A DNA stretch of 62,995 bases, filler included, from Sanchytrium tribonematis (GCA_018985235.1; 10 parts of 10 records of this genome joined end to end with filler, not necessarily neighbours in it); one strand, 5' to 3'. Shown: positions 22,047-23,938, counted from the first letter of the whole stretch. Numbers and translations are program-made. Notes: generated by a model not told the origin, from the letters alone.

Positions 22047-23349
22047 TTACAAGTACATGCCTGGCACACCCTCTTGTTTACGGAACATGACCTTCTCTTT
22101 AGCCTTTTCAAAGTCGCTCTTACTGACTTTCATTCTTCTTTCACGAAGGGCCAACAAGCCAGCTTCAGTACAGATAGCTTTGATATCTGCACCGCTAATG
22201 TCTTCCTTGCCTTGAATAAATGCATCCAAATCGACGTCACTATCTAAATTCATCTTGCCAGTGTGAATTTGAAAAATCTTTTTCTTAGTTTTCAAATCGG
22301 GCATTGGAAATTCTATTTTTCTATCGATACGGCCGGGTCTAATCAGAGCAGGATCCAAAGACTCAATTCGGTTCGTTGCCATAATTACTTTAACATCTCC
22401 ACGACTGTCGAATCCGTCTAATTGATTAAGCAATTCAAGCAAAGTTCTCTGAATCTCTCTCTCACCACCGCTATTACTGTCAAATCGTTTTAAACCGACA
22501 GCATCAATTTCGTCGATAAAAACAATAGAAGGAGCGTTTTCTTCTGCGACTTTAAATATTTCTCTAACCATTTTTGGGCCTTCACCCAAATATTTTTGAA
22601 TTAATTCTGATCCAACTACTCTTAAAAATGTTGCACTAGTTTGATTAGCAACCGCTTTGGCAAGCAATGTCTACGTAAAAAAAATTTACCTTTCCTGTAC
22701 CCGGTGGCCCATATAAGATAACACCCTTGGGTGGTTTAATTCCCATCTCCTCGTAAAGTTCAGGGTGAGTAAGAGGAAGCTCCACACTTTCTTTGATTTC
22801 TTGCACCTGTTTTTCTAAGCCACCAATGTCGGCGTAAGTTTCCGTCGGAGCTTTGTCTAATTTTAAGACGCTTACAGCTGGATCCTCAGAATTCAAAATT
22901 CCAACTACAGAAGAATGTTTATGATGAAGTAAAACGCTTTGACCTGGCTCTAATTGATCTTTATCTACCACACTAAGAATCGGAACATATAAATCGGGCC
23001 CTGTTGTGGATGAGATTATAGCATGATCGTCGTCAATCATTTCTTCCAAGGTACCTTGAACAAGTGGCGAGCCACGTAATTGCTGAACTTCCTCATAAGC
23101 ATCGGAAATTCCGGAAGCTTTCTTTCCTTCCTCTTGCTTTTGTTCATTATTATTTATATATTCTTCTTCAAGTAAAAGCCAGTCTTTAACTCTTTCTAGT
23201 TGCAAAGCCTTTAATTTACATTTGGTTGAAATAGGAGTTGGCAGCTTGTTAAATTGGGTATTTCCGCCCTTTCTTTTCTTTTTAAAAGTCCTTGTTAGTA
23301 GTGGTTTTTCATATTTCTTCTGTTCTTGTTTGGATCCTTGATTTCCCAT
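22047..23349 (-). CDS. RPT2: 26S proteasome AAA-ATPase subunit Rpt2 (PSMC1); exons 23349-22690 and 22670-22047
   Basis: MG myristoylation start; spliced [37 protein letters not shown]-terminal HbYX motif GMYL. Confidence 0.97.
22671..22689 (-). other. 19-nt GT-AG intron within the RPT2 Walker A motif
   Basis: gtaaattttttttacgtag; exact removal restores GTGKTLLAKA. Confidence 0.95.
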
Positions 23350-23938
23350 GTTACAAAAATCTTTGGCGAAGAATGCAATTTCAAAACTAAATTTCGATCA
23401 AAAAGTAAGATTAGGTAAATCATTAAGAGTAAACCACGCCGGAGAAGTAGGAGCAAATTTTATATACGATGGACAATTAAAATTTATTGGCGATCCTCTG
23501 AAGCCATTAATTCAGCATATGAAAGAACAGGAATTAGAGCATCTAAATATGTTCAATGAGTTGTTACCAATGACTAATACTAGGCCCTCGATGCTGCTGC
23601 CAGCTTGGAAAGTGGGAGGATTTATTTTAGGTGCAACCACTTCATTATTAGGACGAGAAATGGCTATGCTTTGCACAGAAGCCGTTGAAACAGAAATTGG
23701 TAAGCATTATAACGATCAATTACGCGATTTGATTCAACTCGAGGAGGAAGTAGATGATGAATTAAAGCCTTTTTTTAAAGAATTACAAATTACAATTCAA
23801 AAATTCAGAGATGACGAACTTGCTCATAAAGACATAGCTCTAAATAATGACTCAAAGTCAGCTCCACAATATGAACTCGTATCAAAACTTATTGGTGGTG
23901 GTTGTAAACTTGCCATTGAGGTTGCCAAAAGATTTTAG
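23348..23938 (+). CDS. COQ7: 5-demethoxyubiquinone hydroxylase (di-iron)
   Basis: [43 protein letters not shown]. Confidence 0.95.

What the first reader, a model, noticed from the sequence alone, without database searches (positions are those of the whole stretch)
23340..23360. RPT2 and COQ7 start codons overlap inside one CATG palindrome, leaving no intergenic DNA
Seen: CATG at 23347-23350 gives the RPT2 ATG on the minus strand (23349) and the COQ7 ATG on the plus strand (23348). RPT2's MG start is the conserved myristoylation site. COQ7 has no other in-frame ATG before its first iron ligand (RVNHAGE). Inference: each gene's promoter and 5' UTR lie inside the other's coding sequence, so the 5' ends of the transcripts must overlap in antisense. 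This is extreme even for compact eukaryotes.
Basis: partly seen in the sequence, partly recalled or inferred. Interest (0 to 1): 0.72.

Follow-up and report, generated by a model that had tools for sequence, protein, structure and literature searches.

The report
Two fungal genes sharing start codons
In a small-genome zoosporic fungus close to the sanchytrids, the proteasome gene RPT2 and the ubiquinone gene COQ7 point away from each other and their start codons share two letters of one CATG, so each gene would have to be switched on from inside the other; this is a rare but already known kind of gene overlap.

Summary
CATG at 23347-23350 holds the ATG of COQ7 (+, 23348-23350) and the ATG of RPT2 (-, 23349-23347). 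Both genes are intact, and homologues support both starts. RPT2 begins MGNQGSKQE, as in three close relatives, and 11 of 12 aligned RPT2 proteins begin MG. COQ7 begins MLQK, as in close relatives. It has a TGA 9 nt upstream in frame, and no credible splice acceptor lies before the conserved part.

The junction lies inside a real contig; the window is a chain of contigs joined by N/TTAATTAATTAA linkers. In three relatives RPT2 and COQ7 also sit on one contig, which argues against misassembly. In Amoeboradix gromovi the two ORFs cannot overlap by more than 2 nt, and at least 52 nt probably separate the homologous Met from RPT2. The zero gap is therefore probably a lineage-specific collapse of a short spacer.

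That each promoter and leader lies in the other gene follows logically but is untested, because no RNA data could be obtained. "Extreme even for compact eukaryotes" is overstated: head-to-head overlaps and overlapping transcription are known.

Verdict: a real, ordinary-in-kind, rare-in-degree arrangement. More unusual are the 19-20-nt introns seen in passing.

The parts
23347..23350 (.). CATG palindrome holding both start codons: COQ7 ATG at 23348-23350 (+) and RPT2 ATG at 23349-23347 (-). They share 2 nt.
   Evidence: Sequence read; ORFs.
22690..23349 (-). RPT2 exon 1, 220 codons, from MGNQGSK... to ...GPPGTGK.
   Evidence: PDB Rpt2 chains match at E 1.4e-78. The first 9 residues are identical in relatives P0082, P0201 and P0202.
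22671..22689 (-). 19-nt intron of RPT2 (GTAAATTTTTTTTACGTAG) splitting the P-loop GTGK|TLLAKAV.
   Evidence: Read. Relatives' ORFs run straight through this point ([19 protein letters not shown]). It was found again by the ORF-restoring intron scan.
22047..22670 (-). RPT2 exon 2, from TLLAKAV... to ...PGMYL plus the stop codon at 22047-22049.
   Evidence: Pfam AAA (2e-23) and AAA_lid_3 (2.9e-11) on the part from Met 22571. Reading frame and ORF limits.
23348..23938 (+). COQ7 coding sequence, 196 aa, single exon. All six di-iron ligand positions are present (E33, E62, H65, E114, E157, H160).
   Evidence: Pfam PF03232 at 206.8 bits; invariant columns in the alignment.
23339..23341 (+). In-frame TGA, 9 nt upstream of the COQ7 ATG. 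It closes the frame, so 23348 is the first possible start. The only AG between it and the conserved N-terminal block is at 23370-23371.
   Evidence: Sequence; stop-to-stop ORF 23342..23938.
23266..23289 (.). T-rich (plus strand) / A-rich (minus strand) tract GCCCTTTCTTTTCTTTTTAAAAGT. It encodes RPT2 residues T21-G28 (TFKKKRKG) and lies 59-82 nt upstream of the COQ7 ATG. It is a candidate (inferred only) poly(dA:dT)-type promoter element embedded in coding sequence.
   Evidence: Sequence. The function is inference and was not tested.

Best explanation
RPT2 (minus strand) and COQ7 (plus strand) are two intact, divergently oriented genes whose ATG start codons overlap by two bases inside CATG 23347-23350, so their promoters and 5' leaders are predicted to lie inside each other's first codons and their primary transcripts would overlap in antisense by at least two bases. 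The organism is a compact, AT-rich zoosporic fungus closely related to Amoeboradix gromovi (Sanchytriomycota). Several of its neighbouring genes are almost as tightly packed. The pair most likely arose when a short ancestral bidirectional spacer collapsed to nothing in this lineage (inferred). The geometry couples the two genes. Met-Gly of RPT2, the N-myristoylation site, fixes the -3 to -1 context of COQ7 as CCC, which is off the A-rich consensus. Leu2 (TTA) of COQ7 gives RPT2 the context AAC-ATG-G. Shown here: the sequence, both gene identities, both start positions by homology, and conservation of the neighbourhood in relatives. Inferred: where transcription starts, that the two mRNAs pair or interfere, and the deletion history.
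For: Geometry is shown.

RPT2 start: 11 of 12 aligned RPT2 proteins begin MG. MGNQGSKQE is identical in P0082, P0201 and P0202. Rpt2 N-myristoylation is described as a general mechanism (PMC10686573, start of abstract in the search listing).

COQ7 start: a TGA lies 9 nt upstream, and there is only one AG (AAG, 23370-71), not preceded by the T-rich tract that marks this genome's introns. Close relatives start at the same place: MLQR (P0002/P0203), MLRK (P0204) and MLQK (P0004), and P0003 has MKQK at the homologous Met. The six iron ligands are intact.

Not an assembly artefact: the junction lies 1.09 kb inside contig piece 1-24438, and there is no inverted duplication around it. RPT2 and COQ7 relatives come from one named contig in A. 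gromovi (NODE_732, ORFs p2 and p3). Two further unnamed assemblies have both proteins on contigs of identical length (28223 and 14635).

The neighbourhood is clade-specific: in 7 of 7 other fungi where both proteins were listed, the contig lengths differ.

General compaction: the lectin ATG at 22011 lies 35 nt after the RPT2 stop, and two convergent stop codons abut at 20750/20751.

Start-codon context: among 29 ORF starts, A occupies -4, -2 and -1 in 16 each and -3 in 12. COQ7 has CCC and RPT2 has AAC.
Against: No RNA evidence of any kind exists: no RNA run was listed, and the published relatives were annotated from ORFs only. Transcription starts, leaders and expression of COQ7 are therefore unobserved.

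The N-terminus of COQ7 is short. It has 27 residues before RVNHAGE and a total length of 196 aa, against 218-267 aa in Blastocladiomycota. It therefore has no obvious mitochondrial presequence, which leaves a little room for a missed 5' exon.

The relatives' starts are themselves intron-blind ORF calls.

The zero spacer is probably not conserved. In A. gromovi the COQ7 ORF stays open 18 codons upstream of the homologous Met and cannot overlap RPT2 by more than 2 nt (positive control). I could not read any relative's DNA, so orientation and spacing there are unknown. Co-location on unnamed contigs rests on matching contig lengths only.

The genome assemblies of this group come from multiple-displacement amplification, which makes inverted chimeras (PMC8371127, section 17).
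Confidence: 0.78

Rival explanations
1. The arrangement is real, but both mRNAs are leaderless or nearly so, with transcription starting within a few bases of each ATG as in microsporidia. The antisense overlap would then be only a few bases, and there would be little interference or duplex formation.
For: Intracellular-stage 5' UTRs of the microsporidian Encephalitozoon cuniculi are described as among the shortest known (PMC3629993, Background passage). COQ7's forced CCC context is poor for scanning-type initiation. Other gene pairs in the window leave only 0-35 nt between coding sequences.
Against: Nothing is known about leaders in this lineage. Other divergent pairs in the window keep 82-401 nt between ATGs, which suggests ordinary leaders and promoters where space allows. 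Sanchytrids are not close to microsporidia.
Confidence: 0.2
2. COQ7 does not start at 23348. A missed upstream exon encoding a mitochondrial presequence is spliced in, or translation starts at a non-AUG codon, so the shared CATG is a coincidence.
For: COQ7 is short at its N-terminus compared with other fungi. This genome has 19-20-nt introns that ORF-based annotation misses. An AG at 23370-71 is in phase 0 with the reading frame.
Against: A TGA at 23339-41 leaves only two codons (TTT, CCC) before the ATG. The single AG is an AAG with no T-rich tract, unlike the 7 introns found. The only GT within reach is at 23350-51, and using it would destroy the ATG. MLQK/MLQR/MLRK is kept at the N-terminus in close relatives, which is unexpected if these codons were removed or untranslated. 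No ATG lies before iron ligand E33.
Confidence: 0.07
3. The junction is an assembly or amplification chimera that joined two unrelated loci head to head.
For: Published genomes of this group were made by multiple-displacement amplification of single sporangia and assembled with SPAdes (PMC8371127, sections 17-18). The window is a chain of draft contigs.
Against: Both genes are complete exactly up to their start codons. No inverted duplication flanks the junction. The junction is 1.09 kb from the contig end.
Confidence: 0.04

Closest known systems
[quoted passage not shown]
   Same: Two protein-coding genes on opposite strands whose 5' ends overlap, so that sense and antisense transcripts share sequence and each promoter lies within the other transcription unit.
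   Different: As far as I recall (not checked in the text), the human overlap concerns alternative long 5' isoforms and non-coding 5' parts. Here the coding sequences themselves touch, and no alternative non-overlapping start is possible. RNA duplexes and R-loops were shown experimentally there; nothing is shown here.
Overlapping transcription in compacted microsporidian and nucleomorph genomes (Williams et al. 2005 PNAS and Corradi et al. 2008, seen only as references 12-13 in PMC3629993; Background passages read)
   Same: Genome compaction leaves too little intergenic DNA for separate control regions, so transcripts start or end inside neighbouring genes.
   Different: Those are obligate intracellular parasites or endosymbiont remnants with much smaller genomes. 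The relatives of this organism have 10.5-11.2 Mbp genomes (PMC8371127). This window also keeps ordinary spacers of 82-401 nt at other divergent pairs.
Minimal regulatory space between yeast genes (Chen, Wei & Lercher 2011, PMC3128071; abstract read)
   Same: It addresses the same question: how short a promoter-containing inter-CDS region can be, for one-directional and bidirectional promoters alike.
   Different: In 11 yeasts the lower limit is 80-255 bp. Here the inter-CDS distance is -2, so regulatory sequence must be coding sequence.

Membership tests
COQ7 / 5-demethoxyubiquinone hydroxylase (Pfam PF03232) | Profile match above the curated cut-off over the whole domain | tested here: met
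   206.8 bits against a cut-off of 23.5; residues 22-193 cover profile positions 3-169 of 169.
COQ7 / 5-demethoxyubiquinone hydroxylase (Pfam PF03232) | Di-iron carboxylate ligands E, ExxH, E, ExxH (motif recalled from general knowledge of the family) | tested here: met
   E33, E62, H65, E114, E157 and H160 are invariant columns in 16 aligned COQ7 proteins, including a bacterial one.
COQ7 / 5-demethoxyubiquinone hydroxylase (Pfam PF03232) | Mitochondrial targeting of the eukaryotic enzyme | not testable with these tools
   Only 27 residues precede RVNHAGE. They are basic (K4, K8, K13, K19, R21, K24, R27 against one acidic residue, D17; translation). No targeting predictor was available.
RPT2 / PSMC1, 26S proteasome regulatory subunit 4 | Closest to Rpt2 rather than to the other five Rpt paralogues | tested here: met
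   Exon 1 scores 267 bits with yeast Rpt2 chains and 255 bits with human PSMC1. The next paralogue, Rpt3, scores 139 bits.
RPT2 / PSMC1, 26S proteasome regulatory subunit 4 | N-terminal Met-Gly (N-myristoylation site) | tested here: met
   The protein begins MGNQGSK, and 11 of 12 aligned RPT2 proteins begin MG. Myristoylation itself was not tested. Its general role comes from PMC10686573 (start of abstract in the listing).
RPT2 / PSMC1, 26S proteasome regulatory subunit 4 | OB domain, AAA+ ATPase domain with lid, and a C-terminal HbYX-type tail | tested here: met
   Pfam Prot_ATP_ID_OB_C, AAA and AAA_lid_3 all match. The protein ends ...GMYL. The HbYX Tyr of Rpt2 is named in the abstract of bioRxiv 10.1101/2020.09.20.305532 (listing).
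[quoted passage not shown] | Opposite strands, divergent orientation, and start points that cross | tested here: met
   The ATGs at 23348 (+) and 23349 (-) share 2 nt. Homologues support both starts.
[quoted passage not shown] | Both genes transcribed, with overlapping 5' ends of the RNAs | not testable with these tools
   No RNA run was listed, no genome was held, and the published relatives have no transcriptome.
Conserved bidirectional gene pair | The same neighbours in related genomes | tested here: inconclusive
Contig lengths differ in 7 of 7 more distant fungi. Orientation and spacing in relatives could not be read. In A. gromovi an overlap of more than 2 nt is excluded.

The most novel reading that the evidence does not exclude
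Sanchytrid-like fungi, although they have free zoospores and genomes of about 10 Mb, have reached a microsporidian or nucleomorph grade of compaction. Promoters are routinely embedded in neighbouring coding sequence, leaders are minimal, and spliceosomal introns are cut down to 19-20 nt. In the RPT2/COQ7 pair the two proteins' first codons and the two translation-start contexts are mutually locked: Gly2 of RPT2 gives CCC before the COQ7 ATG, and Leu2 of COQ7 gives A at -3 of RPT2. The pair would then be an obligate sense-antisense unit whose expression levels are coupled.
Probability: 0.2. Interest if true: 0.55.

Novelty: new member of a known kind. Interest (0 to 1): 0.3.

Why it matters
If transcription data confirm it, the locus is a clean natural case of two essential-pathway genes with no non-coding DNA between them. 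It lies below the 80-255 bp lower limit on promoter-containing regions reported for yeasts (PMC3128071, abstract), so functional promoter information must be written in coding sequence. It also matters for annotation. Gene callers that forbid 5' overlaps, or that ignore 19-nt introns, will truncate or split genes in these genomes. One relative's COQ7 was called 12 residues short from a non-ATG start (P0005 against P0204), and the published proteomes of the group are ORF-based. Beyond that it is a curiosity of a known kind, not a new mechanism.

Tried and rejected

Whole genome: none is held for this window.

None was a close relative, so synteny could not be read from DNA.

Earlier notes of this scan: nothing on this genome or on look-alike sequence.

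Bacterial-type promoter/terminator scan of 22900-23800: 2 promoter-like sites against 2.7 expected. This is irrelevant for a eukaryote and was dropped.

CCAAT boxes as a promoter mark:
- CCAAT/ATTGG occurs 18 times (16 distinct sites) between -100 and -20 of 29 starts. About 8 are expected from the window-wide density of 3.54 per kb.
- The longer CCAATCA is not enriched in the window as a whole: 19 found against 14.7 expected, and 16 of 100 shuffles reached 19.
- Neither RPT2 nor COQ7 has a consensus site nearby, so this gave no handle on their promoters.

GC3 profile of the two genes: my exon join was one base off, so values beyond RPT2 codon 220 are out of frame and I do not use them. The low G+C of the first 90 nt of both genes (0.33 and 0.28) could simply reflect Lys-rich and N-terminal composition.

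A second candidate head-to-head overlap (C2-domain gene ATG at 38791 against ORF ATG at 38762, 30 nt overlap) is ambiguous. The C2 protein has a second Met at about 38731, just before its domain.

Inverted duplication as a sign of an amplification chimera: none found, only chance matches of 20 nt or less.

Supplementary data of PMC8371127 were not opened; they may hold assembly details that bear on the contig.

Full report
**Observation.** The sequence around the finding reads gatttcccATGttacaaaaa, so CATG occupies 23347-23350. On the plus strand, ATG 23348-23350 opens a 196-aa ORF that ends at 23938. On the minus strand, ATG 23349-23347 opens an ORF beginning MGNQGSK. The two start codons share 23348 and 23349.

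**What the two genes are.** The plus-strand ORF matches Pfam COQ7 (PF03232) at 206.8 bits over residues 22-193. It keeps the six ligand positions E33, E62, H65, E114, E157 and H160, which are invariant in an alignment of 16 COQ7 proteins.

The minus-strand gene is RPT2. Its first exon scores 267 bits with yeast Rpt2 chains and 255 bits with human PSMC1, against 139 bits for Rpt3. It has the OB domain, and its downstream ORF has the AAA and lid domains.

RPT2 is split by a 19-nt intron, GTAAATTTTTTTTACGTAG, at 22689-22671, between GTGK and TLLAKAV. Close relatives read straight through this point. Exon 1 is 22690-23349 and exon 2 is 22047-22670.

**Are the start codons right?**
- RPT2: 11 of 12 aligned homologues begin MG. 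The first nine residues, MGNQGSKQE, are identical in three close relatives (P0082, P0201, P0202). N-myristoylation of Rpt2 is described as a general mechanism of proteasome membrane anchoring (PMC10686573; I saw only the start of the abstract in the listing).
- COQ7, upstream limit: the frame is closed by TGA at 23339-23341, 9 nt upstream, so 23348 is the first possible ATG. The next Met is residue 58, beyond ligand E33.
- COQ7, splicing: the only AG between the stop and the conserved block ISKLNFDQ is an AAG at 23370-71, with no T-rich tract. The only GT within reach (23350-51) overlaps the ATG itself. This does not resemble the introns of this genome.
- COQ7, relatives: close relatives begin at the same place with MLQR (P0002/P0203), MLRK (P0204) and MLQK (P0004). 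P0003 has MKQK at the homologous Met.
- Caveat: these relatives are intron-blind ORF calls, so they support the start rather than prove it.

**Where the sequence comes from, and whether the junction is real.** The window is not one molecule. Nine 100-nt linkers (44 N, TTAATTAATTAA, 44 N) join separate contigs. The finding lies in the first piece, 1-24438, 1.09 kb from its end.

The nearest named relative is Amoeboradix gromovi, a sanchytrid. The window's RPT2 exon 1 is 88-92% identical to P0082, the representative of the cluster that holds the A. gromovi protein P0201, and COQ7 is 63-65% identical to the A. gromovi protein.

In A. gromovi the RPT2 and COQ7 relatives are ORFs p2 and p3 of one 4716-nt contig. 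In two unnamed assemblies the two relatives sit on contigs of the same length (28223 and 14635). In 7 of 7 more distant fungi where both proteins were listed, the contig lengths differ: Cladochytrium replicatum, Allomyces javanicus, Geosiphon pyriformis, Rhizophagus clarus, Gigaspora rosea, Racocetra persica and Coelomomyces lativittatus. Some of those clusters span more than one contig, so this is indirect.

The neighbourhood is therefore a trait of this clade. That makes an amplification or assembly chimera unlikely, although the group's genomes were made by multiple-displacement amplification (PMC8371127, sections 17-18). No inverted duplication flanks the junction.

**Is the zero gap conserved?** I could not read any relative's DNA, so I tested which offsets let the two A. 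gromovi proteins be encoded on opposite strands of the same bases.
- Of 260 offsets tried, the only one compatible with any overlap has the first Met of the called COQ7 ORF (MNGM...) sharing CATG with RPT2, a trivial 2-nt overlap. Every larger overlap is impossible.
- A positive control on the window's own sequence recovered only the true offset among 300.
- The Met homologous to the window's Met1 lies 18 codons further in. So either A. gromovi has at least 52 nt between the two ATGs, or its COQ7 has an 18-residue extension.
- The extension (MNGMPCFIQFNLISAKTI) looks like translated AT-rich spacer. I think the first option more likely, and I read the window's state as a lineage-specific loss of a short spacer. 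This is inference.

**How it most likely works.** Given two correct starts, RNA polymerase must begin at or left of 23348 for COQ7 and at or right of 23349 for RPT2. The two primary transcripts therefore overlap by at least 2 nt, and each core promoter lies in the other gene's first codons. This follows from the geometry, but no RNA data could be had.

The surroundings show that this genome tolerates such packing. The next gene's ATG (22011) follows the RPT2 stop by 35 nt, and two convergent stop codons abut at 20750/20751. Other divergent pairs inside contigs keep 82, 146, 256 and 401 nt, so the RPT2/COQ7 pair is the tail of a distribution, not the rule.

The overlap couples the genes. RPT2's Met-Gly forces CCC at -3 to -1 of COQ7. 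Across 29 ORF starts in the window, A occupies -4, -2 and -1 in 16 each and -3 in 12. COQ7's Leu2 codon TTA gives RPT2 the context AAC-ATG-G.

The Lys-rich block TFKKKRKG of RPT2 places a 24-nt T-rich/A-rich tract 59-82 nt upstream of the COQ7 ATG. It might serve as a nucleosome-excluding promoter element. This is speculation.

A variant mechanism has near-leaderless mRNAs, as in Encephalitozoon (PMC3629993, passages). It would reduce the overlap to a few bases, and I give it about 0.2.

**Comparison with what is known.**
- Transcripts that start or end in neighbouring genes are a known consequence of compaction in microsporidia (PMC3629993, passages and its references 12-13).
- Yeasts keep at least 80-255 bp in promoter-containing regions (PMC3128071, abstract), so a distance of -2 is unusual for a fungus.
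- Earlier notes of this scan list several CATG-sharing pairs in other genomes, each judged rare but known in kind, and one case judged a coincidence. I treated these as leads only.
- A search for 'sanchytrid' with 'intron' found 2 papers, and in both the word occurs only in the reference list. 'Intergenic' does not occur in PMC8371127. I therefore found no description of this locus or of gene overlap in the group within the held library.

**Verdict.** It is a new example of a known kind, of modest interest. The 19-20-nt introns and the differences in intron position between close relatives, seen in passing, may deserve more attention than the shared CATG.

Noticed in passing
window 24439-24538, 28756-28855, 33071-33170, 37382-37481, 41681-41780, 45962-46061, 50236-50335, 54505-54604, 58762-58861: The window is a chain of separate contigs joined by artificial 100-nt linkers (44 N + TTAATTAATTAA + 44 N). 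The pieces after the first are about 4.2 kb each, in descending length. ORFs and gene neighbourhoods that cross a linker are artefacts.
   Followed up: yes
window 13408-13427(+), 20931-20949(-), 22671-22689(-), 46520-46539(+), 47012-47030(+), 54981-54999(+), 57720-57738(-): Seven ultra-short (19-20 nt) T-rich introns, of the form GT(A/T)..TTTTT..TTAA(Y)..AG. Removing each one restores a long open frame. The RPT2 case is confirmed by relatives that lack it. Lengths this short are otherwise recalled from chlorarachniophyte nucleomorphs and some ciliates. No description was found for sanchytrids in the held library, and the published proteomes are ORF-based.
   Followed up: partly
window 22047-22690 compared with proteins P0082, P0201, P0202: Intron positions differ between close relatives. 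The relatives' RPT2 ORFs run through the P-loop site, where the window has its intron. They break after ...KKIFQIHT(G), where the window reads on (GKMNLDSD...).
   Followed up: partly
window 20748-20753 and 22011-22049: Other near-zero spacers occur in the same contig. The stop codon of the plus-strand ORF 20409-20750 abuts the stop codon (20751-20753) of the last exon of the minus-strand L-type lectin gene. The lectin ATG (22011) lies only 35 nt downstream of the RPT2 stop.
   Followed up: partly
window 38731-38791: This is a possible second head-to-head overlap. The first ATG of a C2-domain gene (38791, minus) and the first ATG of an unknown 285-aa ORF (38762, plus) overlap by 30 nt. A second Met of the C2 protein at about 38731 would instead leave a 30-nt gap.
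   Followed up: partly
window, upstream of many ORF starts (e.g. 12305, 15057, 16796, 24837, 53063, 54390, 62317): CCAAT/ATTGG boxes, often CCAATCA, lie 24-95 nt upstream of many ATGs. There are 18 hits (16 distinct sites) between -100 and -20 of 29 starts, against about 8 expected. Some are shared by divergent pairs. This may be the NF-Y/HAP-type promoter element of this genome. There is no overall enrichment of CCAATCA in the window.
   Followed up: partly
window 23348-23430; proteins P0001-P0006, P0204: COQ7 of this clade has almost no N-terminal extension. It has 17-27 residues before RVNHAGE, about as many as an alphaproteobacterial COQ7 (P0043). Blastocladiomycota and Mucoromycota proteins carry 40-90 extra residues. 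How it reaches mitochondria is open.
   Followed up: no
window 33171-37381: One contig piece carries Ty3/gypsy-type retroelement domains (reverse transcriptase, RNase H, integrase zinc-binding domain) on the minus strand.
   Followed up: no
window 24043-24213 (-): A 56-aa ORF convergent with COQ7 (104 nt between stop codons) has two Cx9C pairs, like small mitochondrial intermembrane-space proteins. I read this from the translation; no family search was made.
   Followed up: no
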